DNA of 64,000 bases, taken from an uncultured Candidatus Saccharibacteria bacterium. Lineage in GTDB: Bacteria; Patescibacteriota; CPR2; UBA1875; CAIMLA01. Shown piece after piece: positions 2,693-57,226 of this stretch. Within the stretch, counting starts at the first letter, position 1, and every line of letters begins with the position of its first letter. The stretch lies in assembly GCA_964511435.1 (NCBI GenBank), contig CAZEFH010000002.1:8416-72415 (forward strand). Direction: 5' to 3'. Position numbers and translations under genes: made by a program. The notes below the pieces were generated by a model, which searched no databases, was not told where the DNA came from, and was given only the letters and a program-made list of their open reading frames with translations.

Positions 2693-3412
2693 TTGTCTGA
2701 TACAAAATATGACAAAAAGGTAAAGGCCCCTTCTACCCAGCAGTTTATTCCTATTAAGGAAATCAAAGAAGGGGTGGTAGTAATGCGAAATGGGTCACTG
2801 AGAGCCGTGCTCTTGGTGTCTTCTCTAAACTTTGCCTTGAAGAGCGAAGACGAGAAGAATGCTGTCATCGCTTCATATCAGAGTTTTCTCAACTCTCTCG
2901 GCTACCCAGTACAGGTCTATGTCAAATCCCGTCAGCTACATCTAGACAATTACATCCACTCTTTGGAGAAACAGCTGGCGGCACAAACAAATGAGCTCCT
3001 CAAGCTCCAGACCAGCCAATACCTCGAGTTTATCGCTGAGCTGCTACAATACTCCAATATTATGGAAAAACGCTTCTTTGTTATCGTACCCTTCTATCCT
3101 ACCGGTTCAGAAAAGGTAGGCCTAATTAAAAATCTTTTTTCAGGCAAGGAAGGTGTCGCAACCGCAGACTTTGAAACCCAGAAGACTGAGCTAATGCAGC
3201 GAGTTGATCATGTTATCAATGGCCTCACTGGGATTGGCGTGCGCTGTGCCGCACTAAATACCGAGGAGCTGATTGAGCTCTACTACTCTGTCTACAATCC
3301 TGATATATCGGGCTCTGAGAAGATTACTGATGCAGACATCATTCAGTCAGAAGTAGTATCTGGTGGAGCGGCCGACAATTCTGCTACAGAGGAGGGAGCG
3401 CCAAATGCTTGA
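2693..3412 (+). CDS. VirB4/TrbE-family N-terminal domain protein (first half of a split VirB4)
   Basis: The residues QQFIPIKEIKEGVVVMRNGSLRAVLLVSSLNF..KSEDEK match the conserved N-terminus of Gram-positive VirB4/PrgJ-like ATPases. The TTG start sits after a GGAGGG Shine-Dalgarno. The stop TGA overlaps the next ATG. Confidence 0.6.
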   Translation: MSDTKYDKKVKAPSTQQFIPIKEIKEGVVVMRNGSLRAVLLVSSLNFALKSEDEKNAVIASYQSFLNSLGYPVQVYVKSRQLHLDNYIHSLEKQLAAQTNELLKLQTSQYLEFIAELLQYSNIMEKRFFVIVPFYPTGSEKVGLIKNLFSGKEGVATADFETQKTELMQRVDHVINGLTGIGVRCAALNTEELIELYYSVYNPDISGSEKITDADIIQSEVVSGGAADNSATEEGAPNA

Positions 3413-10684: not shown

Positions 10685-11782
10685 TTAAGAACGAAGTGGC
10701 ATAATAATGTAAGTGTAGTCTCCCTTACCTTCGAGACGAATGACACCAGGGTTTAGTTTCCCGCTAATTTCAAAGATAATTTTATCTTCTTTTACATTCG
10801 CAAGAACATCGAGAATATATTTACTATTAAAGGAAATTTCACCATCTTTACCCTCAACTTCTGCTTCAACCATAGACGAACTGTCACCAATCTGGGAACT
10901 AGTAGCATTTACTTCAATCTTTCCCTTAGAACGAATGAAGATATTAATACTATTTGCATTTTCTCTAGCAAAGAGTGAGGCTACTTTCAAAATTGAAGTA
11001 AATTCTGCGGCCGATACCACTGCTTTTGTATCGTTTGTATCTGGAATAATCTGTTTATAGTTAGGAAAGTTTCCATCGATAAGTCGAGAAGTGAACTCAA
11101 TTTCATCAGCCGCAAAGAGAACCTGATTATCATTAACACAAACTCGAAGATCTCCTACAATGTCAGAGAGAGTTCTACTGAGCTCCATAAGGGCGCGGGC
11201 TGGAATAATAATCTCTACCTTATCCGCTACCTTCTTCGCTAGTTTTATTTGTTTTTCGGCTAACCTATAGCTATCAGTAGCCGCTAGGGTTAAAGTATCT
11301 CCTTCCACAAGAAAATAAACACCCGAAAGAACTGGTCTAGCCTCATCAAGAGCGGCGGCAAAGGTTACTTGTGAGAGAGCTTCTCTTAGAGTTTTTGCGG
11401 AAATAGAGAATGCCGTAGATTCAATACTAGGAATAAGTGGAAATTCATCGATTGAGATACCTTTAATAGATAACTTATCTTTATCTGAGTTTACATGAAG
11501 AGTCATTTCTTCTGTTTCTAAAACTACTTTTTCACTACCAAGAGAAGTGATAACATCACTAATTAGTCGGGCAGGCACAGTAATAGCACCATCCGCTTCG
11601 ACTTTTGCACCAACCCAGTAATTTACCCCTACTTCTAGATTTGTCGCTGATATCTTAAGTCTTCCGCTTTCTGTTGCTATCATCACATTACTTAAAATTT
11701 CTAGACTTCCCCTAGTTGTAACTACTCTCCCACATACTGCAAGTGCTTTTGCGAGATTTTCTCTTAATATCGATACTTTCAT
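10685..11782 (-). CDS. dnaN: DNA polymerase III beta sliding clamp
   Basis: The length is 365 aa, the N-terminus is MK.SILRENL..AL and it sits between dnaA and recF. Confidence 0.9.
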   Translation of the reverse strand: MKVSILRENLAKALAVCGRVVTTRGSLEILSNVMIATESGRLKISATNLEVGVNYWVGAKVEADGAITVPARLISDVITSLGSEKVVLETEEMTLHVNSDKDKLSIKGISIDEFPLIPSIESTAFSISAKTLREALSQVTFAAALDEARPVLSGVYFLVEGDTLTLAATDSYRLAEKQIKLAKKVADKVEIIIPARALMELSRTLSDIVGDLRVCVNDNQVLFAADEIEFTSRLIDGNFPNYKQIIPDTNDTKAVVSAAEFTSILKVASLFARENANSINIFIRSKGKIEVNATSSQIGDSSSMVEAEVEGKDGEISFNSKYILDVLANVKEDKIIFEISGKLNPGVIRLEGKGDYTYIIMPLRS

Positions 11783-12054: not shown

Positions 12055-13434
12055 CTATCCATAAAGTCGTTCCCGAATAAGGCCTATTTCATGTCTCAAA
12101 ACCTCATTGTCCTGGATTTCTCTATCAATTTTGTCACATGAATGAATCGCAGTAGTGTGGTCTTTTTTTCCGAGTTCACGAGCAATTTTGGGATATGAGA
12201 GCTGAAGCTCTTCTCGCATTAAATACATTGCGATTTGGCGAGGAAGCACAATCTCTTTATCTCTCTTTGTGCCAAGTATTTCATTTACAGAGAGATCATA
12301 GAAGTTGGCAACCTTTTCCACTATTTGTCTGGCGGTGAAGCCGCGCCTACGGGCATTTGAGATAAGGTTTGAGAGAATTGATTTAGTTACATCCAGGGTT
12401 GGCTGTCCACCATTAAGTTCACAGTATGCCAGGATACGATTAAGAGCCCCTTCAAGTTCACGGATATTATTCTGGATATTACGAGCGATGTAATCAAGAA
12501 CTTCTAAGGGCACAACATAGCCCCGAAGTTGACTTTTGCGCTGCAAGATAGCAATTCTCGTTTCTAGGTCTGGCGGCTGAATGTCTACCATTAAACCCCA
12601 TTCGAAACGAGAACGGAGGCGCTCCTCTAGAGTTGGGATTGCTTTTGGAGGACGGTCGCTCGCGAGAATGATTTGCTTATTTGCTTGATGGAGAGCATTA
12701 AAGGTGTGAAAGAATTCCTCCTGAGTTTGCTCCTTATTAGCGAGGAATTGCAGGTCATCAACAATCAAAACGTCTGCTTTACGATATTTATCTTTAAAAC
12801 CGCCGGTTTTTTTCTCTGTAATCGAAGAAATAAAGTCGTTTGTAAATTTCTCGCTGGTGACATAGACAATGTTTTTCTTAGCGTCTCGGTTACGGATGGC
12901 ATTACCAACCGCTTGCATTAGATGGGTCTTCCCCAGTCCAACTCCGCCATAGATGAAGAGTGGGTTGTATTTTGTTCCTGGATTTTCGGCGACACTCTGA
13001 CAAGCGGCAAACGCAAGCTTGTTTGAAGTTCCGACGACGAAAGTATCTAGGGTATAGCGCGGATTCATCCCGCTAGCAGTACCGCCATCACTACTTACCG
13101 CCGGGGCAGTAGGTTTAATATGAATAGTGTCGTCAGTCGTGACAGCTACTGGTTCTACCTTTTCGTTTAATTTTTCGATAGTTTTTGCTGAGCCAACCCG
13201 ATATTCTATTTTTGAGACTTGGGGCGCAGCATGTTTTATGGCTTCGAGTATCTGGGGGTGATATTTCTTTTCTAGCCACTCTTTAGTGAAAACATTTGGG
13301 ACGCTTACCAGAACAACTTCACCATCAATAGACGCAATCTGAGTGTTTTTGAACCAGGTCGTAAAGTTTGCCTTTGACAGGGAAACTTCGAGTTCACCCA
13401 GAACTGATTTCCAGATTGCATCTTTTTCCATCAT
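12055..13434 (-). CDS. dnaA: Chromosomal replication initiator protein DnaA
   Basis: AAA+ Walker A (GGVGLGKTHL), Walker B (LIVDDLQF) and the C-terminal DnaA-box-binding signature (HTTAIHSCDKI) are present. Confidence 0.95.
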   Translation of the reverse strand: MMEKDAIWKSVLGELEVSLSKANFTTWFKNTQIASIDGEVVLVSVPNVFTKEWLEKKYHPQILEAIKHAAPQVSKIEYRVGSAKTIEKLNEKVEPVAVTTDDTIHIKPTAPAVSSDGGTASGMNPRYTLDTFVVGTSNKLAFAACQSVAENPGTKYNPLFIYGGVGLGKTHLMQAVGNAIRNRDAKKNIVYVTSEKFTNDFISSITEKKTGGFKDKYRKADVLIVDDLQFLANKEQTQEEFFHTFNALHQANKQIILASDRPPKAIPTLEERLRSRFEWGLMVDIQPPDLETRIAILQRKSQLRGYVVPLEVLDYIARNIQNNIRELEGALNRILAYCELNGGQPTLDVTKSILSNLISNARRRGFTARQIVEKVANFYDLSVNEILGTKRDKEIVLPRQIAMYLMREELQLSYPKIARELGKKDHTTAIHSCDKIDREIQDNEVLRHEIGLIRERLYG

Positions 13435-40906: not shown

Positions 40907-41252
40907 AGCCCTCAGGCTTACTGACAATCGAGATTTTCAAAATGTATATAGGCGCGGTCGTTATAATGCGACCGCGCTTCTTAGTGTAAACGTCCTTGCT
41001 AGTCGTGGTGGAGCGACTAAGATTGGTGTCGTTGCGAGTAAGAAGGCAGCTAAAAAGGCTCATGACCGTAATGCAGTGAAGCGTAAAGTGCGCGAAGCAG
41101 CTAGGCTTGCATATTCTAGGCTGAAGCCAGGCAACAATGTCGTAATTACAATTAAGGCACCAGCCCTTACTGCCGACTATAAAACTCTTGAGAAGGACTT
41201 GCTTGGTTCATTTAAGCGACTCGGACTTTTTACTGATGAAAGCTCTAAATAA
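40896..41252 (+). CDS. rnpA: Ribonuclease P protein component
   Basis: A basic 118-aa protein directly after rpmH. The R..L..N..F..V...G motif region is present. Confidence 0.8.
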
Positions 41253-41523
41253 GATAATTCGGTGGCCGTTTAAGGCACTAATTACCCTGTATCAGAAGAC
41301 TATATCTCCTGACCATGGGATTATTTCTGGCTTCTTTCCTCATGGATACTGCAGGTTTTCTCCAACTTGCTCGGAGTATACCAAGCAAGCGATTGATAAA
41401 CATGGTGTAGTGCTCGGCACGGTAATGGGAAGCTGGCGCATACTTCGATGTAATCCCTGGTCTCGTGGTGGCAATGATCCAGTGCCCGATAAGCCACTCG
41501 AGGCATTTAAGAAAAGTAAATAG
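41236..41523 (+). CDS. yidD: Membrane protein insertion efficiency factor YidD
   Basis: The motif is PTCSEY...AI..HG...G..LG..RI.RC.P, with a start at the MKALNK ATG. Confidence 0.8.
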
Positions 41524-41531
41524 AACGAAAA

Positions 41532-41560
41532 CTGCCCCGCACGCAAATGGGGCAGTTTCC
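41532..41560. terminator. Rho-independent terminator hairpin after yidD (CTGCCCC, 10-nt loop, GGGGCAG, then TTTCC)
   Basis: A 7-bp perfect stem followed by a T-run. It also abuts the end of the minus-strand high-GC operon. Confidence 0.6.
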
Positions 41561-41595
41561 TTACTTGCAGGCGGGGCAGATGCACGCGTGGTGCG

Positions 41596-41964
41596 CTAGC
41601 TGGACGGAACGAACTCGAGCCTCGCAGCGTAGTCGCGGTTCACGCGGCAGGTGTAGAAGTGCGGTGGAGCAATCGGGTCAGCGTACGCAACCACGACGGC
41701 ACGGCCGTTTTCACGATTGGCTGCGACGAAGGCGAGGTCAAACCTGAATCCGTTGATGCTTTCGCCCTCGAAAGGCCCGCCGAGAAGCCAGCCGTTATCC
41801 CGAAGGACGCACTCCAAATCCTCCAGAGAAGGGCCGTAGGTAGCTGCTTTACGAGTGGCAAACTCGGACGCGAGGTAGGGGTGAGTGTCCTTGGCCACCT
41901 TCTCCCTGTTGATCTCGGTGAGGTCTGTGACAAAGGTAGGCCAACTGTGGATCGATCTCAGCAT
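41596..41964 (-). CDS. Hypothetical protein, third gene of the high-GC three-gene operon. A weak barstar-like pattern (..EFA.....YGPSLEDLECVL) is speculative
   Basis: High GC3 codon usage. A GGAGGTGA Shine-Dalgarno lies 7 nt upstream of the ATG at 41964. The gene lies 15 bp after the previous gene's stop. Confidence 0.5.
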   Translation of the reverse strand: MLRSIHSWPTFVTDLTEINREKVAKDTHPYLASEFATRKAATYGPSLEDLECVLRDNGWLLGGPFEGESINGFRFDLAFVAANRENGRAVVVAYADPIAPPHFYTCRVNRDYAARLEFVPSS

Positions 41965-41979
41965 GTAGGGTCACCTCCG

Positions 41980-42435
41980 CTACTCGCGCTCGGGCAATGC
42001 GCCGGTCATCACCGTGAAGCGCTCGAGGTCGAGAACTTCGGTGATGAGGTCGATTGCCAACAAGATCAGAACCTCATGCAGACCTTCGGTGATGTAGAAC
42101 TCGACGCTACGCAGCTCGCCCCTGAAACCATTTGCCCAAGGGAAGCAGACAGCGATCTCTCCGATGACATCGTTGCCATCCCTCTCCAGGACCTCAATCC
42201 AGGAGACGAGTGCGTACTGGTACCCGTCAGGGCCGTAGACCTTGGCGCGCTGGTGTGTCAGGCGATAGTCGCCTTCCGTAAGGGAAGCGCGACACTTCGC
42301 CATTCCTCGTGACAGGTCGATCCGGTGATCTCCGCCCAGGCTCTTGGCCCAGGCGTCGAGACGGGGATCAACCAGATTCAGCTTGTGGCCAGACTTGATC
42401 TCTCCGTAGGCGAAGACGACATGTGTCTCTTCCAC
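41980..42435 (-). CDS. Hypothetical acidic protein, second gene of the high-GC operon
   Basis: The start is GTG and a GGAGGTG Shine-Dalgarno lies 7 nt upstream. GC3 is high. No recognised domain. Confidence 0.5.
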   Translation of the reverse strand: MEETHVVFAYGEIKSGHKLNLVDPRLDAWAKSLGGDHRIDLSRGMAKCRASLTEGDYRLTHQRAKVYGPDGYQYALVSWIEVLERDGNDVIGEIAVCFPWANGFRGELRSVEFYITEGLHEVLILLAIDLITEVLDLERFTVMTGALPERE

Positions 42436-42448
42436 GATGGTACACCTC

Positions 42449-42640
42449 CTACTTCTTCTTGGGAGTGGGGGCGGCCGACATCGTCGGCAGCACCTTGGTC
42501 TGGGGCGGCTTCGGGTCGGCGTTGAACCGACCTATGATGAGCGAGAAGAGTATGCCGAAGACGATAATGCCACCGATGACAATGGCAAACGCCAGGCGGT
42601 TCAGCTCGCCAACCGTACGTTCCTTATCCAACATATTCAC
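42449..42640 (-). CDS. Small single-pass membrane protein (63 aa), first gene of the high-GC operon
   Basis: One TM helix (LAFAIVIGGIIVFGILFSLIIG) is followed by a Pro/Lys-rich tail. The gene has a GAGAGGGG Shine-Dalgarno and a GTG or ATG start. Confidence 0.45.
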   Translation of the reverse strand: MNMLDKERTVGELNRLAFAIVIGGIIVFGILFSLIIGRFNADPKPPQTKVLPTMSAAPTPKKK

Positions 42641-42766
42641 GTGCTTTCCCCTCTCAGTCAGACCCTACCTCGGTAGGGCATTATCTATGAGCAGAACACG
42701 ATATATTATAACAAGTTGGCCAATAAATCAATAGTTTTAAAGCCCGGTCCAATGAATATACTAGAA

Positions 42767-42802
42767 TAAACATTACGACATTCTTGCGAATGTCGTAATG
42801 TA
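42767..42802. promoter_or_regulatory. Palindromic operator-like element (ACATTACGACATTC, 4-nt spacer, GAATGTCGTAATGT) in the divergent region between the high-GC operon and the ArsR-like gene
   Basis: It has perfect 14-bp inverted arms. The same element occurs, reverse-complemented, at 43119..43156. Confidence 0.6.
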
Positions 42803-42818
42803 GTGGTACATTATACTT

Positions 42819-43091
42819 ATGACGAAAACCCCAAAACAACTTGAAAGATATTTTAAAGGAGTATCAAATCACCGGCGGATACAGATTTTGAAATTAATTA
42901 AAGACAGGGGATCTTTAACCTTATTCGATATTTCTGAGACTCTGAATTCGAATATCACAACAATTTCCGAACATACAAGTCGGCTAGCTAAGGCAGGCTT
43001 AATTAACAAGGAATATAAAGGCAAGTTCGTTTTTCACTCCTTGTCTCCCTATGGAGAGATTATGATAGAAAGCTTTGAAAGGTTCTCATAG
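42819..43091 (+). CDS. ArsR/SmtB-family winged-helix transcriptional regulator
   Basis: The motif NHRRIQILKLI...SLTLFDISETLN.NITTISEHTSRLAKAGLI matches the ArsR HTH pattern. It is 90 aa. Confidence 0.7.
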   Translation: MTKTPKQLERYFKGVSNHRRIQILKLIKDRGSLTLFDISETLNSNITTISEHTSRLAKAGLINKEYKGKFVFHSLSPYGEIMIESFERFS

Positions 43092-43118
43092 AAGTAAGTA
43101 GATTCGTGTTTTGTAGTA

Positions 43119-43156
43119 TAAACATTACGACATTCGCAAGAATGTCGTAATGTTTA
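43119..43156. promoter_or_regulatory. Second copy of the palindromic operator (TAAACATTACGACATTC GCAA GAATGTCGTAATGTTTA, 17-bp arms) in the promoter region of the large lipase-like gene
   Basis: A perfect 38-bp palindrome that is the exact reverse complement of the upstream copy. Confidence 0.6.
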
Positions 43157-43213
43157 TATATTGACAATATTTACACATATACTCATAATATAGCCAAATA
43201 ATGGAGGTAAGAG

Positions 43214-46200
43214 GTGGCTTCCATGGGTAAAAATTCAGCTGTGATTTCTTGGTTTGAATCAATCATTAACCAGGAAAATTATTGGAGAAGTGTATTTTAT
43301 GCAGGGCTTACAGTTATAGTGAGTCTTTTTTTGTATTTACCGCAAAAGACATTTGCAGCGGAGTGGGTGAGCATGGGTTTCGAAGATACACAGGTCAGAT
43401 CATATGTAGTTGATCGATATGATAAACAACATATCGTTGTAAATCTCTCGTCTACAAAAAATGGTTTCTATAATTATTATACAAAAGATGGGGGAGATAC
43501 GTGGCAACCAATCCAAGGGGCAAATAGCATATGTGATACGGCGATTCAAAATCGAGGTAATAAGCTGGAGTTTTGGCTTGGTTGTATGGATGGACTGAAA
43601 AGATCAATTGATGGTAGTGATACTTTTCAGACGGTGGTAAATTATGGTAATAACATTGTTTATAATATGTCTTCCTCGGACGATGGAACGCTATATTTTT
43701 CGGCTGCGAATTCTGTCTATAGAGTAAGAGACAGCCTGATTATCGAAAAAACCAACCTGCCAAACACAAGTAGCTCTATCGCGTACATTTCTGTAAACCC
43801 GATTAACAGCAGTGAAGCGTATATTTCCAAAACTGGAACCGGACCAGGAATATACAAGACAAGCGATGCCGGGGGTAATTGGGCTCAAGTTTCTGCGATG
43901 GCGCAGTTTAATAGTGGAATTAATGGTTTATATTTTCTTGGTGACGGTAACCTGTGCATTACGGCCAGCCCCGGTGGTGTTAGTTTTTCGTCAAATGGTG
44001 GCTTTACGTGGAGCAATCTAAAAACACCTGATCCGAGCGGTCAATATGAATCTAATCGTCTGTATTCTGGTGGTCAAAATCCTGATGTTTTGGCAAATGT
44101 GATAATTACCAACTTTACCTTGGCGAATGTAACCCCTAGAATTTACTCTCAGACTGGGGCCAGTACTCTCGATACCGTGGTTTCTCCACTCACATTTAGT
44201 GCTGTCTACCCGGCTGTGTCTCAAGGAGTGACGTTTGTAGTAGGGCGTATTGGGACAAATGGTATTTGGAGAAATGACGGGATAGCTATTCAGCCAGAAT
44301 ATCTCAAGAAGCGACCGGTAATAATTATTCCGGGAATAATGGGGAGCTGGGGTAAAAGTTTTAGTAAAGAGTTGTTTTTAGACCCAATTTTTCACACATA
44401 CGACTCGCTAATCAATTCTTTAGTCGAAAATGGTTTGAGGGAGGATGTGGACTATTTTACATTCCCGTATAACTGGATGCAGGACAACCATCAGTCTGCA
44501 ATTCAACTTAAATATTTTATAGATAAAATCAAAATTAATACTGGCGCTGATAAGGTAAATATTGTTGCTCATAGTATGGGTGGTATAGTTACTCGGGATT
44601 ACGCAGAATCAAGTAATTATGAAAATGATATAGATAAAATAATATTTTTAGGGACGCCTCATTTAGGTAGTCCATCATCATATATTACATGGGAGTCTGG
44701 AAAGGTTGTTTTTGGTAGTGATTTGCTTACAAATGAATTAACAAATTATTTATTTGCTGAAATGGCAAAACAGTTTGGTTATAATAGTCTATTTGACTTT
44801 ATCCGTCACAAAGTCGTATCTGTGGGGCAGCTATTGCCTATTTATGATTATTTGGCAACGAGTTCTGGTGTTTTATTATACCCAAACGGTTACCCTCGAA
44901 ATAACTACTTGGAAAGACTTGATGTAAATAACAATTTACTAATTAGTTTAGGGATTCACGTGACCAACATCATAACGCAAGATATCGAAACCATTAATGG
45001 GTACAAAGTAAGTAATGATGAAGGATCTGATGGCCATTGGGAATTTGGGTTCCCGGAACTCCCAATGATTGGGTTTGGAGATGGTGTTGTTCCAAATAAT
45101 AGCTCAACATTCATCGCAAGCCAAAAACAGGTAATACTGAATGGTGTTGGCCATCGTGAAATAGCCACTAGTGCAACAAGAGAGGTCTTGGTCGCACTTG
45201 GTATAAATGATCCTAAGACTGTAATTGAGGAAACTATAGAAAAGTACTTAATAATTAAGGCATATTCCCCAGTAGACTTTTATGTTATTGCGCCAGATGG
45301 TTTGAAAATTGGCTATAACAAAAATGGAGGAATATTTAACGAAATTACTGACGCCTTTTACTCTGGAGCAGACAGTGCAGCAGAATTTGTTACAATTCCG
45401 AGTCCTCCAGATGGTGAATACCGGATAGTTACGCTGGGTAACTCCTCGGGTTCATATAAGATTGAATCAAGCTATATCGATGATCAGCTGAACAAAGGAT
45501 CTACGACAAGTTACGAGGGTGTCACCAAGGTGGGGTCTGAACAAACCGTCATAACAAATCTCTCTAAAGCAGATTTTGAGACAGAAACAGAAATAGATGA
45601 TCATATTGCACCAGTTACCACTGCATCCATTGATCAATCAGAAATCGAATACAATAAAGGCCCGCTAACAGTTACTCTTTCTGCAACCGATAACGTAAGT
45701 GGTTTAAAGGTAACTCAATATAGTTATGATGGTAGTAATTGGAATGATTACGTCGATCCAGTAACAATCTCTGAAAATGGTACGAACACATTACATTACC
45801 GTTCAGAAGATAATGCCGGCAACGTGGAAGAAACAAAGACACTGGTGGTGAAAATTGATTATACTCCGCCAATGATTACGCTCACAACAGACAAATCAAG
45901 TTATACAAGATATGATAAAGTAAGTCTAAGTTGTGAGGTAATTGATGTATTTTCACAAGTAAAAACCGTTAATCTAGAATTAGATGGAAATCAGATTCAG
46001 TGTAGTAATCAAGAAATTGATGTCTCGAGATTGGCGCTCGGTAGTCATACACTTCACATTGTCGCGACTGATGTAGTTGGGAATGTGGCGGAACAGACCG
46101 TACATTTTAATATAATCGGAACTTCTACTTCATTATTGCTCGACATCAATTCACTGTACTTTGGCAAACAGATTAGTCGAATGCAATACTATCAATACAA

Positions 46201-46366
46201 CGCGCTCTTATCAGTCTATGAATTGATGTCTAGACTAGGCCTGGGAAAACCTGCGAACTCAATTTTGGATGCGTGGTTAAAAATTATTGATAAAGACAAA
46301 AAACTTAAGTTTATTACTGATTACGCGTATAATTTACTTAAAGAGGATATGTTATGGCTAAAGTAA
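43214..46366 (+). CDS. Large secreted alpha/beta-hydrolase (lipase/esterase, PGAP1/DUF676-like) with C-terminal Ig-like / OmpL47-type beta-sandwich repeats
   Basis: It has a signal/TM N-terminus. The nucleophile elbow is VAHSMGG (GxSxG). C-terminal NVSGLKV..YSYDGSNW...HYRSEDNAGNVE repeats are typical of chitobiase-type Ig-like domains. Confidence 0.6.
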   Translation: MASMGKNSAVISWFESIINQENYWRSVFYAGLTVIVSLFLYLPQKTFAAEWVSMGFEDTQVRSYVVDRYDKQHIVVNLSSTKNGFYNYYTKDGGDTWQPIQGANSICDTAIQNRGNKLEFWLGCMDGLKRSIDGSDTFQTVVNYGNNIVYNMSSSDDGTLYFSAANSVYRVRDSLIIEKTNLPNTSSSIAYISVNPINSSEAYISKTGTGPGIYKTSDAGGNWAQVSAMAQFNSGINGLYFLGDGNLCITASPGGVSFSSNGGFTWSNLKTPDPSGQYESNRLYSGGQNPDVLANVIITNFTLANVTPRIYSQTGASTLDTVVSPLTFSAVYPAVSQGVTFVVGRIGTNGIWRNDGIAIQPEYLKKRPVIIIPGIMGSWGKSFSKELFLDPIFHTYDSLINSLVENGLREDVDYFTFPYNWMQDNHQSAIQLKYFIDKIKINTGADKVNIVAHSMGGIVTRDYAESSNYENDIDKIIFLGTPHLGSPSSYITWESGKVVFGSDLLTNELTNYLFAEMAKQFGYNSLFDFIRHKVVSVGQLLPIYDYLATSSGVLLYPNGYPRNNYLERLDVNNNLLISLGIHVTNIITQDIETINGYKVSNDEGSDGHWEFGFPELPMIGFGDGVVPNNSSTFIASQKQVILNGVGHREIATSATREVLVALGINDPKTVIEETIEKYLIIKAYSPVDFYVIAPDGLKIGYNKNGGIFNEITDAFYSGADSAAEFVTIPSPPDGEYRIVTLGNSSGSYKIESSYIDDQLNKGSTTSYEGVTKVGSEQTVITNLSKADFETETEIDDHIAPVTTASIDQSEIEYNKGPLTVTLSATDNVSGLKVTQYSYDGSNWNDYVDPVTISENGTNTLHYRSEDNAGNVEETKTLVVKIDYTPPMITLTTDKSSYTRYDKVSLSCEVIDVFSQVKTVNLELDGNQIQCSNQEIDVSRLALGSHTLHIVATDVVGNVAEQTVHFNIIGTSTSLLLDINSLYFGKQISRMQYYQYNALLSVYELMSRLGLGKPANSILDAWLKIIDKDKKLKFITDYAYNLLKEDMLWLK

Positions 46367-46755
46367 ATGTAAATATCTCTCCACTCGGGTTATGGATTTA
46401 CTTCGAATCACTCATCTCGGTGTTATTGTTGTGGTATTCGGGAACATACACAAATTGGGGAATCCAGTTATTGATTGCCTTGGCAGTCATCTTGATTGTC
46501 CTGTGGTTATATATATTTAGTGCCAAATCAATAATATATCGAGCAGTTATTTCAAACTTAATTCTGACAGCCGTAACCTCTGTGTATTACGTAATCATTA
46601 TTTTTATAGGGCTATCAAAAGGTTTAGTATTGGGAGATTACTGTTTTGATGTATGTATAGGAGAATGGCTATTGTTTTATATAGTAATTATTACCTCGAT
46701 TTTTATGACTATAACTCAATTATTAATTTTTAAACTAAATTACAAAAACCTATGA
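46354..46755 (+). CDS. Hypothetical small polytopic membrane protein
   Basis: It has 4 predicted TM helices. Confidence 0.35.
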   Translation: MAKVNVNISPLGLWIYFESLISVLLLWYSGTYTNWGIQLLIALAVILIVLWLYIFSAKSIIYRAVISNLILTAVTSVYYVIIIFIGLSKGLVLGDYCFDVCIGEWLLFYIVIITSIFMTITQLLIFKLNYKNL

Positions 46756-46973
46756 CTATCCAAGAACTTAAAACTACAATTGACCGAATCGAGGGGGAGT
46801 ATGCTGTGCTCGTCTATGGCAAGGAGCAGCTGCTCTGGCCGAAGGATAAGCTCCCTGCTCACGCCAAGGAAGGTGATACCCTTGTACTTACTGCCAAGCG
46901 GGACGTAGATGCGCGCAAAGACCGAGAAGAACTAGCAAAAACGGTTATCAACGAGCTGCTGAAAAAGGACTGA
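46752..46973 (+). CDS. DUF3006-family small protein
   Basis: The 73-aa sequence has the pattern IDRIEG..AVL......L.WPK..LP..AKEGD.L. Confidence 0.5.
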   Translation: MTIQELKTTIDRIEGEYAVLVYGKEQLLWPKDKLPAHAKEGDTLVLTAKRDVDARKDREELAKTVINELLKKD

Positions 46974-46974
46974 C

Positions 46975-48696
46975 ATGTCGGCACATAACCCTCAGACCCA
47001 AGCAGGAACTGTCGCCCGGGGGCTACTTGCTGCCTGTGGGTTTGCTCTTGGTGGCTATATTACGCTTGTTATCATACAGCCGATGGTTTTTGAGAATCGA
47101 TTTGGCTATGGCAGTGCTATAGCAGGTATTAGTGTTTCTCTGAAGACTGCCAGCGAGGCAGAAGACATCGTCGCCGAAGAGTGGAAAAGATATTCTAAAT
47201 CAGAGGTAGATTTTTCTGGTCAAAGTATACCTGTGACGGCACTGGTGAAGGAAATAGATATTAATCGAACTATCGATGAGGCGTTGGTCGATGAAGAGAG
47301 ACATTACTTCGGACTTTCTAAGTACAGTGGCAAAAGTCATAGTACGAAGCTTGTTTATAATGATGACGAGATCTCGGCGCAGCTATCTCAGCTTTATGAC
47401 GAGGTAGCGACAGTACCTGCAGACGCTGTGATTGCTGACATTGATGCTGGAGTTGTGGAGTCTGAGAAGTCGGGGATACGGCTACTTCTTGCGGAGTCCC
47501 GGATGAATATTTATGACAGCCTCACGCGCTTCGAGAGCATCATCGGTCCTCGTACTGAGCAGTTGGAGCCAGGGTTAACAAAAACGGCGGCAGAGGCGCT
47601 TATTACGAGTGTACGGGCTAGTATTGCCACCCCAGTACAAGTAAAAGGCGATAATTATAGTGAATCGATATCCGCAGCTAGTCTAAAAGAGTGGCTAAAA
47701 TTGTCACCAATCTCATCGCAGACACTAGTAGCGAATGACACGTTACTTCCTGACAACGATGATGACTATTACTATCTCGACCAGGCCAAGCTGTATCAGT
47801 ATGCATCCATGATTGCGGAAAAAGTAAATCAGAAGGCTGCGAATGCTGTTCTAGGGATGAATGGAGGCGCATTAGTAGTGGTCCAGGCTTCGGTGATAGG
47901 ACAGGAACTAAACAAAAATAAACTCATCGCCGATATTGAAGACGCAGTAAAGTCGGATCACTCTGTTAATCTCTCGGTGTCTGTAATACAACCAGAGGTG
48001 ACAGAAAAGAATCTGGGTCAACTAGGAATTACTGAGCTTATCTCTGAGGGGTGGTCGGATGCCGCCGGTTCTCCCGCCAATAGAATCCACAATTTCAAAA
48101 CAGGTACATCAAAGTTCAATGGAGTTCTCATAAAGCCAGATGAAGAGGTTTCGTTCAATAAAATTCTCGGACCAGTCGATGCTAGTACTGGTTATGTTCA
48201 AGAGCTAGTGATTCTGGCTGATAAGACGGTACCTGAGTATGGTGGCGGTCTCTGTCAGGTATCATCGACGGCATTTCGCGCTGCTCTGAATGCAGGACTT
48301 CCTATTCTGGAGCGACACAATCATGCTTATCCGGTCGTTTACTACAGGCCATATGGAGTAGATGCGACCATCTATCTCCCTACTCCTGACCTTAGATTTA
48401 AGAACGATACAGGGCACTACATCTTGATTCAGACAAGCGTGGTTGGTACAAAGGTTTACTTTGACTTCTATGGTACTAAGAAGCCGGGGAAAACGGTTTT
48501 TTCTGGTAGCGCGAGTCCCGTGAATGAAGTTTCTGTGGTAGAGCAGGTTACCCCGACGATTACTGACGTAAATGCAAGGGGTCCGAAGTCATTTACGGCA
48601 ACATTTTATCGTCACATCTATGACGCTGCAGGAAAGCTTACCGATAATGATAAGTTTACTAGTCGGTATGATACACCCGACAAGTACCCGCACTAG
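46975..48696 (+). CDS. VanW-family protein (N-terminal TM, linker domains, C-terminal VanW domain)
   Basis: The VanW core is GTSKFNG......EVSFN...GP....GY.....I....TV.EYGGGLCQVSST.F.AALNAGLPI.ERH.H. Confidence 0.7.
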   Translation: MSAHNPQTQAGTVARGLLAACGFALGGYITLVIIQPMVFENRFGYGSAIAGISVSLKTASEAEDIVAEEWKRYSKSEVDFSGQSIPVTALVKEIDINRTIDEALVDEERHYFGLSKYSGKSHSTKLVYNDDEISAQLSQLYDEVATVPADAVIADIDAGVVESEKSGIRLLLAESRMNIYDSLTRFESIIGPRTEQLEPGLTKTAAEALITSVRASIATPVQVKGDNYSESISAASLKEWLKLSPISSQTLVANDTLLPDNDDDYYYLDQAKLYQYASMIAEKVNQKAANAVLGMNGGALVVVQASVIGQELNKNKLIADIEDAVKSDHSVNLSVSVIQPEVTEKNLGQLGITELISEGWSDAAGSPANRIHNFKTGTSKFNGVLIKPDEEVSFNKILGPVDASTGYVQELVILADKTVPEYGGGLCQVSSTAFRAALNAGLPILERHNHAYPVVYYRPYGVDATIYLPTPDLRFKNDTGHYILIQTSVVGTKVYFDFYGTKKPGKTVFSGSASPVNEVSVVEQVTPTITDVNARGPKSFTATFYRHIYDAAGKLTDNDKFTSRYDTPDKYPH

Positions 48697-48801: not shown

Positions 48802-49263
48802 TCAGTCGCCGGCGATCGGCTCGTAGGGAGGCAAGTTCGCTGACCCAGCGAAGGTGTCCGATACGACGGTCGGGGACCAGTGGTCTTCAGCGATCTTGTG
48901 CCAGTAGATGGCGATGATGCGGATCTTCTCCTCGATGCCGGAATCATGGTCCAGGTAGTCCTGGAGCTTGGTACTGGCGAGAGCGAGGCGGACTCCCTTG
49001 CCATCCTCGCTATCAGGATCTGCGGCGCAGTCCTCGTGGCTGTGCAGCAGCACGAGGCGTGAGCCGTGGCCTCTGATGGAAGTCAGGATCTCCGAGAGGA
49101 GCAGGTCGCGGTGCGGCCCTTCCTCCTCCAGAGTCATGAAGCCACCAGCACGATTTGGAGCGTCGAGGAACTGGATGCGGTGGGCGCTTGCATAGGCGAG
49201 CACGTCTCTGGTGAGACGACCGTCCATACAGCCCACACTTGTTCCGAATACTCTGTTACCCAT
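48802..49263 (-). CDS. High-GC paralogue of the adjacent gene. A small protein with CxDGR...H(x2)C motifs and unknown function; a beta-carbonic-anhydrase-like metal site is speculative
   Basis: VFGTSVGCMDGR...LDAPNRAGG...HSHEDCA aligns with VFGTMLNCMDGR...VDAPNPAGP...VAHQGCA of 49368..49790. GC3 is high. A GAGAGGGG Shine-Dalgarno precedes the ATG at 49263. Confidence 0.5.
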   Translation of the reverse strand: MGNRVFGTSVGCMDGRLTRDVLAYASAHRIQFLDAPNRAGGFMTLEEEGPHRDLLLSEILTSIRGHGSRLVLLHSHEDCAADPDSEDGKGVRLALASTKLQDYLDHDSGIEEKIRIIAIYWHKIAEDHWSPTVVSDTFAGSANLPPYEPIAGD

Positions 49264-49319
49264 CTGTACCCCTCTCACAGTAGCCGATAATGTGCAACAC
49301 GAAGCAAATTATACACTGA

Positions 49320-49367: not shown

Positions 49368-49790
49368 TTATTCGGTGACCTTGTTCACAAGGTGATTTAC
49401 TTCCCAGTCAAGATCAGTAATCTTAGTGAGCCAGAGACCATCGACGGTAATCCCAGCGGGGAGGCCCCACTTGGTAGCAACAATTTCGACAGCTTCCTTT
49501 AGTTCTGTCAGTTGTTCCTCGTCAGAAATCGGGTTCTTGGCGCACCCTTGATGTGCCACAATAGAGAGCTTGGTCGAGTGATGACCATTGATCGAAATCA
49601 TTGTTTCGGCTTTATAGTGATCGATGATGGTTTTGTCACCTTTTACGATCATGTTTGTAGGGCCAGCTGGATTTGGTGCATCGACTACATCTAGTTTATA
49701 CTGTTCCTTCATCCACTTAACAACGGCATTTTGAGTGCGGCCATCCATACAGTTAAGCATAGTACCGAAAACAGTTGCGGTATCTGACAT
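49368..49790 (-). CDS. Native AT-rich paralogue: a small protein with CxDGR...HxxC motifs (function unknown)
   Basis: An AAAGGAGAGAT Shine-Dalgarno precedes the ATG at 49790. The ORF track extends the frame to 49916, but that extension overlaps atpC. Confidence 0.5.
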   Translation of the reverse strand: MSDTATVFGTMLNCMDGRTQNAVVKWMKEQYKLDVVDAPNPAGPTNMIVKGDKTIIDHYKAETMISINGHHSTKLSIVAHQGCAKNPISDEEQLTELKEAVEIVATKWGLPAGITVDGLWLTKITDLDWEVNHLVNKVTE

Positions 49791-49803
49791 ATCTCTCCTT
49801 TTG

Positions 49804-50258
49804 TTACTGGTTAAGTTTTTCTGGCTTGTGTTGATGTTTTGAGTGTAGGGAAGAATGACGCCCAAGTGAACGTAGCTGTGTAGTGATGCGCGCAAGTTCG
49901 GCTTCTGATACAGCAATCAGCTCTTTGTTATCCTTGGCGGTGTCTAGTGCCTTTTCAGCACGCTCCTTTGCCTTCATAATCTCAGTTTGATTGAGCTCGT
50001 GTAGGTGATCAGCACTATCTGCGAGAATCATTACTTCACCATTTTCTTTTACGTAGACAAAACCACCATAGACGAGGGCTACTTTACTTTTGCCCGCAGT
50101 CTTTACGATGATGTCACCGTGAGTCAGCTCTGCCACAAGAGGCATGTGGTGGGGTAGAATTGCAATCTGGCCAGTGACCGTAGGTAGCACTACCTCTTCG
50201 ACTTCTTCGTCGAGAAGAGTGCGTTCTGGTGATACAACTCTAAGGTGAAGTTTGGACA

Positions 50259-56707: not shown

Positions 56708-57226
56708 GTATACTAGTAACTTTTGTAGCTTGTAATAAACTGGAAGTATGGGCGACAAAAGAAAATATGCAGACCGTCGTGAATACTTGATAGCGGCAGT
56801 GTCTAAAAGAAGAAAACTTCTGCGGGCAAAGGCTATTGAATACAAAGGCGGAAAGTGTAGTATATGTGGCTACCACAAATGCGCAAATGCTCTTGATTTT
56901 CATCATTTATCAGGAAAAGACTTCAGTCTTTCCGCTGATGGAATGACGAGATCATGGGACAGAACAAGAACGGAGCTAGATAAGTGTATTCTAGTTTGCG
57001 CAAATTGCCACAGAGAAATCCATTCGCAGCTTCAGTCGGAAACGGTTGAATGAAAACTGGGTGAATTGCGGGAAACCCTAACGTTAAGTCGAGGGCAATC
57101 CGCAGCCAATCCTCATAATGAGGCAGGTTCAGAGACTAGGTGATTACACCCTAGAGCGCCCAGCACCTAAGGCATTAGCTATGGTGATGAGATAGTCCAC
57201 GCCTTGTAGAAATACTTGGATTAGTG
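56708..57226 (+). mobile_element. Group I intron (IC3-like, resembling the Azoarcus/cyanobacterial tRNA introns) carrying an HNH endonuclease ORF
   Basis: The 5' exon ends in U and the intron ends in G. The 3' core contains AATTGCGGGAAACCC, GTTCAGAGACTAG, CACCTAAGGCA and GCTATGG. These closely resemble conserved P3-P7-P9 elements of the Azoarcus tRNA-Ile intron. Confidence 0.7.
56748..57053 (+). CDS. HNH homing endonuclease encoded within the intron
   Basis: The zinc-finger and HNH motifs are CSICGYHKC...DFHHL and CANCHREIH. The length is 101 aa. Confidence 0.7.
   Translation: MGDKRKYADRREYLIAAVSKRRKLLRAKAIEYKGGKCSICGYHKCANALDFHHLSGKDFSLSADGMTRSWDRTRTELDKCILVCANCHREIHSQLQSETVE

What the first reader, a model, noticed from the sequence alone, without database searches (positions are those of the whole stretch)
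41532..42760. Compact high-GC three-gene operon of unrecognisable proteins inserted between yidD and a divergent ArsR-like regulator: a candidate novel accessory system
The stretch from about 41.56 to 42.70 kb is far more GC-rich than the surrounding DNA, by eye roughly 60% against about 42%. Three co-oriented minus-strand genes are packed with 13-15 bp spacers. Each has a strong GGAGG-type Shine-Dalgarno (GAGAGGGG, GGAGGTG, GGAGGTGA) and a GTG or ATG start, with GC3-rich codons throughout. The products are a 63-aa single-TM protein with a Pro/Lys tail, a 151-aa acidic protein and a 122-aa protein. I recognise none of them. The 122-aa protein shows only a faint barstar-like pattern (YGPSLEDLECVL). 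The block sits exactly between the yidD terminator and the palindromic operator of the ArsR-like gene. Its promoter region is therefore shared divergently with that regulator. The composition, self-contained signals and placement suggest a horizontally acquired module from a high-GC donor. A small-membrane-protein plus two small soluble proteins is a layout seen in toxin/immunity, abortive-infection and holin-like modules. The function is open.
Basis: partly seen in the sequence, partly recalled or inferred. Interest (0 to 1): 0.8.

Follow-up and report, generated by a model that had tools for sequence, protein, structure and literature searches.

The report
GC-rich orphan gene islet after yidD
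A real 1.1-kb stretch of GC-rich DNA with three small genes that resemble nothing known sits in a variable slot of an uncultured bacterium's chromosome, and because a related two-gene version fills the same slot in one relative, it is a lineage-specific accessory cassette of unproven, probably conflict-related, function and not an artefact or a one-off insertion.

Summary
Window 41550-42660 has 58.9% GC against 42.2% elsewhere and is the most GC-rich 1.1-kb stretch of the window. It carries three tightly packed minus-strand genes: A63 (one TM helix, pI 10.3), B151 (pI 5.0) and C122 (pI 5.6). Their GC3 is 0.72-0.80, and the unit has Shine-Dalgarno sites, an extended -10 promoter and a hairpin terminator shared back-to-back with yidD.

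No protein matches Pfam, NCBIfam, PHROGs, PADLOC or PDB. B151 has no true relative among about 15 billion proteins.

An independent assembly crosses both junctions, so the island is not chimeric. Five related contigs have yidD followed directly by DUF3006-VanW, an empty site.

New result: one relative (RnpA 81% identical) carries a GC-rich two-gene version at the same site. It has the same promoter, start context and terminator, a 63-aa TM protein and a B homologue (31% identity, E 9e-9). The gene caller annotated the wrong strand there. So A+B is the core and C is optional. The link to ArsR is not conserved and the barstar hint fails.

Function is unresolved. My best guess is a fast-evolving conflict or immunity-type cassette. 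Overall this is an ordinary kind of feature, an orphan genomic islet, with one odd trait: high GC persists despite saturated divergence.

The parts
41532..41579 (.). GC-rich hairpin that serves as a back-to-back terminator. On the + strand the stem CTGCCCCGC..GGGGCAG plus TTT ends yidD. On the minus strand the long hairpin CTGCCCCGC...GCGGGGCAG followed by UUUUCGUU (41531-41518) ends the island operon.
   Evidence: Inverted repeats I6 and I8. RNA fold of the minus strand gives -36.7 kcal/mol, z = -4.2, with 0 of 200 shuffles as stable. The L011 counterpart gives -38.7 kcal/mol, z = -5.2. 34 nt are 88% identical between window and L011.
41596..41964 (-). Gene C (C122): 122 aa, ATG start, pI 5.6, no TM segment. 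It is the optional third gene and is absent from the L011 version of the cassette.
   Evidence: ORF. GC1/2/3 = 0.59/0.46/0.72. SD GGAGGTGA lies 6 nt upstream. No hit in Pfam, NCBIfam, PADLOC or PHROGs. Only a self-hit in the 5.8-billion-protein search. The weak phage gp35 and hot-dog leads were not confirmed.
41980..42435 (-). Gene B (B151): 151 aa, GTG start, acidic (pI 5.0), predicted mostly beta with a C-terminal amphipathic helix. It is the core cytosolic component.
   Evidence: ORF. GC1/2/3 = 0.65/0.38/0.74. Homologue on the minus strand of L011 10713-11144: 31% identity over 85 aa, pairwise E = 9e-9. Exhaustive HMMER over 1.84 billion representatives found only itself plus one repeat-inflated spurious hit.
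42449..42640 (-). Gene A (A63): 63 aa, GTG start, basic (pI 10.3), one strongly hydrophobic TM helix (residues about 16-37) and a Pro/Lys-rich tail. It is the core membrane component.
   Evidence: ORF. Maximum 19-residue Kyte-Doolittle hydropathy is 2.93. The L011 counterpart at 11158-11346 is also 63 aa, starts with GTG in the conserved context GGAArGCACGTGAA, has one TM helix and pI 11.1, but shows no BLAST-level similarity.
42648..42655 (-). Shine-Dalgarno site of gene A (GAGAGGGG).
   Evidence: Read directly. GAGAGGGGAA is conserved in L011.
42661..42679 (-). Stem-loop in the 5' UTR (GCCCTACCGAGGTAGGGTC). In the window the whole leader 42636-42700 folds so as to partly sequester the SD. 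This structure is not conserved in L011.
   Evidence: hairpin; window leader -26.4 kcal/mol, z = -3.7. L011 leader z = -1.2.
42705..42731 (-). AT-rich, host-type promoter of the operon: extended -10 TGtTATAAT (42705-42713) and a -35-like TTGATT (42726-42731). Inferred transcription start near 42698.
   Evidence: Read. The block TATAATATATCsTGTTC is conserved in L011 at 11396-11412 with 1 mismatch. The consensus scanner did not list it because the -35 is weak. The start site is inferred, not measured.
42766..42801 (.). Context, not part of the cassette: a 36-nt perfect palindrome (ACATTACGACATTC-4 nt-GAATGTCGTAATGT) just upstream of arsR. A second, inverted copy lies at 43122-43157 and abuts the -35 TTGACA of the lipase promoter.
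   Evidence: 4 half-sites in the window against 0.5 expected, and none elsewhere. The palindrome lies at least 35 nt upstream of the island's -35.

Best explanation
SHOWN. Window 41.53-42.73 kb is a genuine, self-contained accessory operon: host-type extended -10 promoter, then gene A, gene B, gene C, then a hairpin terminator. Its composition is foreign. It occupies a variable slot immediately downstream of rpmH-rnpA-yidD in the origin-proximal chromosome of an uncultured bacterium. The conserved core is A, a 63-aa basic single-pass membrane protein, plus B, a roughly 150-aa acidic cytosolic protein. Both recur at the same site in one related genome, with the same promoter, start context and terminator. 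C is an optional add-on. A and B change at the protein level 2-17 times faster than any neighbouring gene.

INFERRED. The cassette is a conflict-type module, most likely protective in the manner of immunity or anti-toxin proteins. The basic membrane-anchored A may tether or cooperate with the acidic B at the membrane. C may be an additional, independently acquired small acidic protector. Rapid sequence turnover would then reflect an arms race with a toxin, phage or host partner. The GC-rich coding part either came from a GC-rich gene pool that is not in the databases, or is kept GC-rich by an unknown force.
For: - Real coding genes. GC3 > GC1 > GC2 in all three frames, with strong SD sites and 13-15 nt spacers. 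B is conserved at protein level but is not alignable by blastn.
- Not an artefact. The independent Logan contig is 100% identical over 41056-42796. A second genome and a second run (GCA_041738615.1 and SRR28170474) show the same arrangement.
- Variable slot. In L013, L014, L016, L019 and L020, yidD is followed directly by DUF3006-VanW. L018 is AT-rich after yidD. L017 has polA there. In the window, DUF3006 and VanW resume at 46764.
- Conserved regulatory ends. These are the promoter block, the GGAArGCACGTGAA start context and the terminator.
- Core versus accessory genes. L011 has A' and B' but no C.
- Fast evolution. dN is 0.73 for A and 0.87 for B, against 0.05-0.38 for seven neighbouring genes.
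- Immunity-like properties. The proteins are small, B and C are acidic, there are no enzymatic or DNA-binding domains, and the locus is hypervariable.
- Context from the literature. Genomic islands are common in Patescibacteria (PMC12455944). Its reference list cites Hsiao et al. [quoted passage not shown]
Against: - No positive functional evidence exists. There is no match to any immunity, toxin, antitoxin or defence family.
- No toxin-domain gene lies next to the cassette.
- Only two family members are known, so constraint cannot be separated from relaxed selection. pN/pS of about 0.8 at saturation is uninformative.
- The topology of A is ambiguous because both flanks are basic.
- Expression has not been measured.
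Confidence: 0.35

Rival explanations
1. Toxin-antidote or abortive-infection module. A63 would be a small membrane-damaging toxin (holin-like or type-I-toxin-like), and B (plus or minus C) its protein antidote or regulator.
For: A is a 63-aa protein with one very hydrophobic helix and basic flanks. The operon is compact. A is basic and B is acidic, which would suit a direct neutralising interaction. Fast evolution is typical of such modules. The layout is conserved as A then B in L011.
Against: There is no hit to holin, Hok/TisB-type, PADLOC or PHROG families. A toxin gene placed first under a strong SD and an apparently constitutive promoter is atypical. B has no DNA-binding domain for autoregulation. 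A and A' share almost no sequence.
Confidence: 0.2
2. Foreign DNA with no present function for the host. It would be a remnant or moron of a phage or other mobile element from a GC-rich organism, retained by chance in a recombination-prone slot.
For: The composition is strongly foreign. The proteins are orphans. C122's C-terminal half weakly resembles a ~48-aa early protein family of Arthrobacter phages (41% over 56 aa, database-level E = 0.1). A second GC-rich gene lies nearby at 48802-49278, and the adjacent ArsR-lipase segment is also accessory. pN/pS is near 0.8.
Against: There is no integrase, transposase, att site or flanking repeat. A and B are intact ORFs with preserved length (63 aa in both), promoter, SD and terminator in two genomes that are saturated at synonymous sites, which argues for maintained expression. 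The phage-family profile scores C122 at only 11.3 bits, against 10.4 for the best of 2000 shuffles. There are no hits in phage, plasmid or IMG/VR collections.
Confidence: 0.2
3. An ArsR-controlled operon functionally tied to the neighbouring regulator and its lipase. This follows from the first reader's point about a shared divergent promoter region.
For: A 178-nt divergent intergenic region lies between gene A and arsR, and it contains a perfect 36-nt palindrome.
Against: The palindromes flank arsR, and the second one abuts the -35 of the lipase promoter. The first lies at least 35 nt upstream of the island's -35. L011 has the cassette and its promoter but no ArsR or lipase. ArsR and the lipase have low GC (0.36-0.38), so they are a separate acquisition.
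Confidence: 0.07
4. Assembly chimera or contaminating GC-rich DNA joined into a low-GC contig.
For: The compositional steps at both edges are abrupt.
Against: An independent de Bruijn assembly of run ERR3839025 crosses both junctions at 100% identity. A different genome from a different sample has a homologous GC-rich cassette at the same site, in two assemblies. The junctions coincide with a shared bidirectional terminator and a host-type promoter.
Confidence: 0.02
5. The GC-rich block is a large structured non-coding RNA, and the ORFs are by-products of high GC content.
For: In AT-rich genomes structured RNAs stand out as GC peaks. The ends are conserved while the interior is diverged. ORF-less GC-rich segments of 270-300 nt follow yidD in L022 and L029.
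Against: There is strong three-base periodicity, with GC3 0.72-0.80 against GC2 0.38-0.46, in exactly the frames that carry SD sites and start codons. B is conserved as protein but not as DNA. There is no Rfam match even at E of 1 or less.
Confidence: 0.03

Closest known systems
Compositionally atypical genomic islets carrying orphan genes in variable slots between core genes. Genomic islands are reported as frequent in Patescibacteria (PMC12455944), and that paper cites Hsiao et al. [quoted passage not shown]
   Same: Foreign base composition. Orphan proteins. Absence from the orthologous site in relatives. Location in a stretch where several other accessory segments lie, namely ArsR-lipase and a GC-rich Pro_CA_2 paralogue.
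   Different: There are no mobility genes, tRNA target or flanking repeats. The cassette uses a host-like promoter and shares a terminator with yidD. A homologous copy at the same site in a relative that is saturated at synonymous sites still has GC3 of 0.65-0.72, which the usual picture of amelioration does not predict.
Orphan or poly-immunity gene clusters of polymorphic toxin systems (SUKH/SMI1-KNR4 and Imm families). This comparison rests on my own knowledge of the work of Zhang, Iyer, Aravind and colleagues.
   Same: Small acidic cytosolic proteins without catalytic motifs. Hypervariability between related genomes. Variable gene number (C present or absent). Own constitutive-looking promoter.
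   Different: No sequence match to any Imm or SUKH profile. No linked toxin gene. A membrane protein leads the operon. Membership is not demonstrated.
Small-membrane-protein toxin modules and holin-like genes.
   Same: A 63-aa protein with one hydrophobic helix and basic flanks, followed by small soluble partners.
   Different: No family match. No antisense-RNA architecture. No lysis genes. A and A' differ almost completely in sequence.
The ~48-aa early-region protein family of Arthrobacter phages, represented by the C-terminus of Maja gp35 and Richie gp63.
   Same: C122 residues 87-112 share the motif GRxxVVxxxxPxxxPxFxTC, co-linear with both C-termini. The phages are GC-rich actinophages, which would fit a GC-rich donor pool.
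   Different: The family's most conserved block (REEAFaaC..SYVEFYGG) is missing from C122. The family profile scores 11.3 bits against 10.4 for the best shuffle. The database-level E-value is 0.1. I treat this as unconfirmed.

Membership tests
Type II toxin-antitoxin (RelE/HigB/ParE-type toxin) | Toxin matches a RelE/HigB/ParE profile and is a small basic protein | tested here: not met
Type II toxin-antitoxin | Antitoxin with an HTH, RHH or AbrB DNA-binding domain encoded alongside | tested here: not met
   No DNA-binding domain was detected in A, B, C, A' or B'.
Known anti-phage defence systems (PADLOC-DB v2) | At least one protein matching a defence-system model | tested here: not met
   No match below E = 0.09.
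Holins and small membrane toxins | Small protein with one or more TM helices | tested here: met
   A63 and A' each have one strongly hydrophobic 19-residue segment, Kyte-Doolittle 2.93 and 2.61.
Holins and small membrane toxins | Match to a holin or toxin family, or adjacency to lysis genes | tested here: not met
   No Pfam or PHROG family below E = 0.09. No endolysin or spanin lies adjacent.
Polymorphic-toxin immunity proteins (SUKH / Imm families) | Profile match to an Imm or SMI1-KNR4 family | tested here: not met
   Pfam found nothing for B, C or B'.
Polymorphic-toxin immunity proteins (SUKH / Imm families) | Small, acidic, cytosolic and hypervariable between related genomes | tested here: met
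   pI is 5.0, 5.6 and 4.9 and there is no TM segment. B and B' are 25-31% identical, while flanking RnpA and YidD are 81% and 77% identical. This is a resemblance in how it may work, not proof of membership.
Polymorphic-toxin immunity proteins (SUKH / Imm families) | A linked or cognate toxin | not testable with these tools
   No toxin-domain gene lies next to the cassette. A cognate toxin in another organism cannot be searched for without knowing it.
Integrative mobile element | Integrase or transposase gene, and terminal or target-site repeats | tested here: not met
   No such ORF lies between 41.5 and 42.8 kb. No direct or inverted repeats bracket the island beyond chance-length matches. 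No tRNA gene is present in the window.
Horizontally acquired genomic islet | Composition deviates from the host genome | tested here: met
   GC z = 3.4, GC3 z = 3.8-4.7, raw tetranucleotide z = 4.2.
Horizontally acquired genomic islet | Absent from the orthologous site in related genomes | tested here: met
   L013, L014, L016, L019 and L020 have yidD-DUF3006-VanW. L018 and L017 also lack the island.
Horizontally acquired genomic islet | An identifiable donor lineage or homologues elsewhere | tested here: not met
   Only self-hits were found for B and C. Nothing was found in phages, plasmids or IMG/VR. The DNA-motif scans returned only chance hits.
ArsR/SmtB-regulated operon | Operator overlapping the operon's core promoter, and co-occurrence of regulator and operon | tested here: not met
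   The palindrome 42766-42801 lies upstream of the island's -35 at 42726-42731. L011 has the cassette without ArsR.
Arthrobacter-phage ~48-aa early protein family (Maja gp35 C-terminus) | Significant match of C122 to a profile of the family | tested here: inconclusive
   C122 scores 11.3 bits and is the top of 600 window ORFs and 2000 shuffles, but the best shuffle scores 10.4 bits and the family's main conserved block is absent.
Structured non-coding RNA | Rfam match, or lack of codon periodicity | tested here: not met
   No Rfam hit of note at E up to 1. There is clear codon-position GC asymmetry in the SD-preceded frames.

The most novel reading that the evidence does not exclude
The A+B cassette is a new, lineage-endemic two-component system: a basic membrane anchor plus an acidic partner, with swappable third genes. 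It would belong to an uncultured, probably CPR-like, bacterial lineage and act in host-epibiont, inter-bacterial or phage conflict. Its coding region would be actively kept GC-rich against the genome's AT bias. It would be largely invisible to protein databases because gene callers trained on the AT-rich genome annotate the wrong strand, as happened in GCA_041738615.1.
Probability: 0.15. Interest if true: 0.65.

Novelty: new member of a known kind. Interest (0 to 1): 0.35.

Why it matters
If the cassette proves functional, it would add two or three new protein families to the poorly known accessory repertoire of an uncultured lineage.

The more general lessons are methodological.
1. GC-rich islets in AT-rich metagenome-assembled genomes can be annotated on the wrong strand, so real families look like singletons in protein databases.
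2. Comparing DNA at orthologous sites recovered a homologue that searches of 5.8 billion proteins (word index) and 1.84 billion cluster representatives (exhaustive HMMER), both drawn from about 15 billion sequences, missed.
3. GC3 of 0.65-0.80 persists at one locus in two genomes that are saturated at synonymous sites. This small, concrete case does not fit the simple amelioration model and could be followed up as more genomes of the lineage appear.

Tried and rejected
- Fused B+C query for the single exhaustive HMMER job.
- P0003 (2990 aa, E = 3e-6). It is a YadA-type trimeric autotransporter, and the score comes from summing about 12 copies of a 27-aa stalk repeat, so the hit is spurious.
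- Genome-collection scan with the neighbouring PPase.
- Metagenome scan with the lipase found nothing.
- DNA probes from the conserved 3' end. The three hits all lie inside coding regions of unrelated genomes with 63-70% GC.
- C122 against PDB gave hot-dog thioesterase 2gvh at E = 0.095 with no Pfam 4HBT hit, so I rejected it.
- B' against Pfam gave AltA1 at E = 0.045, and the B profile against PDB gave a beta-lactamase fragment at E = 0.11. I rejected both.
- The Arthrobacter-phage gp35 lead was followed through 10 phage loci and a family HMM and did not strengthen.
- No paralogues of A, B or C exist in the window or in any fetched locus.
- dN/dS is uninformative because dS is saturated for all genes. 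Only relative dN is usable.
- Literature searches for the run and assembly accessions found no papers.
Full report
1. THE OBSERVATION

The stretch 41550-42660 has 58.9% GC against 42.2% for the rest of the window. It is the most GC-rich 1100-nt window of all, z = 3.4.

Three minus-strand ORFs fill it:
- A63 at 42449-42640, GTG start.
- B151 at 41980-42435, GTG start.
- C122 at 41596-41964, ATG start.

They are separated by 13 and 15 nt, and each is preceded by a GGAGG-type Shine-Dalgarno site. Their codon-position GC follows GC3 > GC1 > GC2, with GC3 of 0.72-0.80 against a mean of 0.405 (sd 0.083) for 54 proxy genes, z = 3.8-4.7. This is the pattern of genuine coding sequence from a GC-rich background.

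The raw tetranucleotide distance is also extreme (z = 4.2). It becomes ordinary once base composition is divided out (z = 0.5). What can be shown on 1.1 kb is therefore a base-composition anomaly, not a distinct oligonucleotide signature.

2. NOT AN ARTEFACT

The only other place where B151 is on record is a 1741-nt Logan contig from run ERR3839025. It is 100% identical to window 41056-42796 and crosses both compositional junctions. It ends inside the 36-nt palindrome that is repeated 350 nt away, which is a natural break for a k-mer assembler.

More importantly, a different genome from a different sample shows the same kind of GC-rich block at the same site (section 4).

3. CONTEXT

The window is origin-proximal chromosome. 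It holds dnaA, a VirB4-type ATPase, an LtaS-like protein, MurJ, FtsH, LepA, an F-type ATP synthase, a short GlmU, a family II pyrophosphatase and many glycosyltransferases. I infer an uncultured, possibly CPR-like bacterium. That inference was not tested: the genome-collection scan did not recover the source genome or any close relative.

Left of the island lie rpmH-rnpA-yidD. To the right lies an ArsR/SmtB-family winged-helix gene flanked by two inverted copies of a perfect 36-nt palindrome. The second copy abuts the TTGACA -35 of a 1050-aa LCAT/PGAP1-like lipase with Ig-like domains.

4. RELATIVES: EMPTY SITES, AND A SECOND COPY

RnpA has 18 relatives at 52-83% identity in the 5.8-billion-protein collection, and I fetched their contigs.
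- In L013, L014, L016, L019 and L020 (RnpA 75%), yidD is followed directly by DUF3006-VanW-...-ATP synthase.
- In the window the same DUF3006 (46764-46975; Pfam E = 5e-13) and VanW resume only at 46.76 kb.
- So 41.52-46.76 kb is extra relative to those genomes. It comprises the GC-rich island, then the low-GC ArsR-lipase pair and a 133-aa ORF.
- L018 (78%) is AT-rich after yidD, and L017 (64%) has polA there.
- The slot after yidD is therefore a variable region in this lineage.

L011 was unexpected. It comes from GCA_041738615.1 (RnpA 81%) and was also assembled independently as L012 from SRR28170474. It has a roughly 700-nt block with GC 0.56-0.62 immediately after yidD.
- The deposited or automatic gene call there is a 110-aa ORF on the plus strand.
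- The minus strand instead carries a 63-aa single-TM protein (A', 11158-11346) and a 144-aa protein (B', 10713-11144).
- B' is homologous to B151: 31% identity over 85 aa, pairwise E = 9e-9, with shared PDGYxY...G.hAh..P...G..G.hR.V.FY motifs.
- The wrong-strand call explains why protein databases hold no relative of B151.
- The two loci also share three regulatory blocks. These are the promoter block TGnTATAATATATCsTGTTC, the start context GAGAGGGGAA..GGCACGTGAA, and 34 nt (88% identical) running from the last stop codon into the terminator stem.
- L011 has nothing corresponding to C122, and no ArsR or lipase.

5. ANATOMY AND LIKELY EXPRESSION

- Promoter. The promoter is AT-rich and host-like, with an extended -10 at 42705-42713 and a weak -35 at 42726-42731. 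The transcription start is inferred to lie near 42698.
- Leader. In the window the leader folds (z = -3.7) so that the SD is partly paired. This is not conserved in L011, where z = -1.2.
- Terminator. The 3' end is a long hairpin, -36.7 kcal/mol in the window and -38.7 kcal/mol in L011, z = -4.2 and -5.2. In the window it is followed by a U-run. Read from the other strand, the same stem terminates yidD.
- ArsR palindromes. They occur only at the two sites around arsR. The nearer one lies at least 35 nt upstream of the island's -35. This, and the ArsR-less L011 cassette, argue against ArsR control.

6. THE PROTEINS

- A63 and A' are both 63 aa and basic (pI 10.3 and 11.1). Each has one strongly hydrophobic helix and basic flanks on both sides, so the topology is ambiguous. 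They share no BLAST-level similarity.
- B151 and B' are acidic (pI 5.0 and 4.9). C122 has pI 5.6. None has a TM segment.
- No protein hits Pfam, NCBIfam, PHROGs or PADLOC at useful E-values.
- B151 and C122 have only self-hits among 5.8 billion proteins.
- Exhaustive HMMER of B151 against 1.84 billion representatives gave itself plus a repeat-inflated hit to a YadA adhesin.
- Phage, plasmid and IMG/VR searches were empty.
- PDB sequence searches gave only E of about 0.1.

The one lead was a tblastn match of C122 residues 66-115 to the C-terminus of Arthrobacter phage Maja gp35 (41% identity, database-level E = 0.1). That module is a ~48-aa early-region protein family found in 36 Arthrobacter phage records. 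I fetched ten more members and built a profile. It scored C122 at 11.3 bits, barely above the best of 2000 shuffles (10.4), and the family's main conserved block is missing from C122. I treat the lead as unconfirmed.

7. EVOLUTIONARY PATTERN

Between the window and L011, synonymous sites are saturated for all genes (pS 0.60-0.81), so dN/dS is not interpretable. dN can still be compared: 0.73 for A and 0.87 for B, against 0.05-0.38 for rpmH, atpD, rnpA, yidD, atpC, glmU and the PPase.

The island's non-coding ends are conserved about as much as other orthologous DNA, at 72-77% against 75-84% of aligned columns. This fits inheritance of the locus from a common ancestor. It does not suggest recently exchanged flanks.

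Even so, GC3 remains 0.65-0.80 in both copies, inside genomes whose own genes have GC3 of 0.33-0.50. There are two possibilities. Either the coding cassette has been replaced independently from a GC-rich pool between conserved ends, or GC richness is maintained by selection or biased conversion. I cannot decide between them.

The absence of any B homologue in well-sampled GC-rich phyla argues against a common donor such as Actinobacteria. The window's second GC-rich gene is relevant here. It is a divergent Pro_CA_2 paralogue at 48802-49278 with GC3 0.74. Relatives also have GC-elevated small genes. Together these show that GC-rich small accessory genes recur in this lineage.

8. INTERPRETATION

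Shown:
- The operon is real and self-contained, and its composition is foreign.
- It occupies a variable slot after yidD.
- It has a two-gene core (A+B) and an optional third gene.
- It evolves much faster than its neighbours.
- Two diverged genomes retain intact ORFs and expression signals.

Inferred (confidence about 0.35): it is a conflict-type, probably protective, cassette. B and C look like immunity or anti-toxin-type proteins, being small, acidic, without enzymatic domains and hypervariable. A would be a membrane anchor or partner whose basic tail could bind the acidic B.

Rivals:
- A toxin-antidote module with A as a membrane toxin (0.2).
- A functionless remnant or moron from a GC-rich mobile element (0.2).
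- ArsR-linked function (0.07).
- A structured RNA (0.03).
- An assembly artefact (0.02).

The remaining probability belongs to functions I have not thought of.

9. COMPARISON AND NOVELTY

The nearest known kind is the ordinary genomic islet carrying orphan genes. Genomic islands are reported as frequent in Patescibacteria (PMC12455944), and that paper's reference list cites Hsiao et al. [quoted passage not shown]

The cassette fails every membership test I could run for barstar, type II TA, known defence systems, holins, Imm/SUKH families and integrative elements. It meets the tests for a compositionally atypical islet that is absent from relatives.

I file it as a new member of a known kind whose protein families are new. 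I score interest at 0.35. The islet itself is unsurprising. The persistence of high GC at an orthologous site, and the wrong-strand annotation that hid the family, are the points worth keeping.

Noticed in passing
window 48802-49278 (-): A second GC-rich gene (158 aa, GC 0.61, GC3 0.74) with its own hairpin terminator. It is a divergent Pro_CA_2 (PF20393) paralogue, E = 9e-13, next to a canonical Pro_CA_2 gene at 49371-49916 (GC3 0.50). Its positional counterpart in L013 (3182-3736) is only 27% identical and is also GC-elevated (GC3 0.52 against about 0.35).
   Followed up: partly
L011 10671-11048 (+) versus 10713-11346 (-): In GCA_041738615.1 the GC-rich block after yidD is annotated as a 110-aa plus-strand ORF. 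The minus strand holds the real A' and B' genes, preceded by SD sites and homologous to the window's genes. Wrong-strand calling in GC-rich islets of AT-rich MAGs hides families from protein databases.
   Followed up: yes
window 42766-42801 and 43122-43157: The 90-aa ArsR/SdpR-like gene is bracketed by two inverted copies of a perfect 36-nt palindrome. The downstream copy abuts the -35 of an 11/12-match sigma-70 promoter for the 1050-aa lipase. No other copy exists in the window. This looks like a two-operator autoregulated unit.
   Followed up: partly
window 42819-46755: ArsR, a 1050-aa LCAT/PGAP1-like lipase with OmpL47-type and Ig-like domains, and a 133-aa ORF form a low-GC (0.36-0.38) segment. 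It is also absent from all fetched relatives. The slot after yidD therefore holds two adjacent accessory segments with opposite compositional bias.
   Followed up: partly
window 56748-57219 (+): A full-length group I intron (RF00028, 85.6 bits, E = 2e-20) at 56968-57219 overlaps the 3' end of a 101-aa HNH-endonuclease-like ORF (…CANCHREIH…) at 56748-57053. No tRNA or rRNA was detected around it, so the host gene of the intron is unknown.
   Followed up: partly
L022 1090-1575 and L029 1100-1384: Two more distant relatives have ORF-less, hairpin-rich, GC-elevated (0.53-0.55) stretches of 270-300 nt right after yidD. They share a 35-nt block (83% identity) with each other but nothing with the island, and they have no Rfam match. 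They may be an undescribed small RNA or a decayed cassette.
   Followed up: partly
L017 6602-6829, 7863-8192, 8246-8476: Three small unannotated ORFs without Pfam hits have GC3 of 0.53-0.61 in a genome whose genes average about 0.42. GC-elevated small orphan genes seem to recur across this lineage.
   Followed up: no
L030-L040 (Arthrobacter phages): A ~48-aa protein (MTREEAFAaC..SYVEFYGGRWLVVP..PV.QPaFF.C.P) is conserved in the early regions of 36 Arthrobacter phage records. It is usually free-standing, near RecT, exonuclease or SprT genes, and in Maja it is fused to a 50-aa N-terminal extension. It is not in PHROGs at E below 0.2.
   Followed up: partly
window 3363-5216 and 12055-13434: A CD1110-family VirB4-like conjugation/T4SS ATPase (E = 3e-111) lies about 7 kb from dnaA. 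Together with the short GlmU and an LtaS-like gene, this suggests a CPR-like, Gram-positive-type host. The source genome has no representative among 185,579 GTDB species genomes when probed with its PPase.
   Followed up: no
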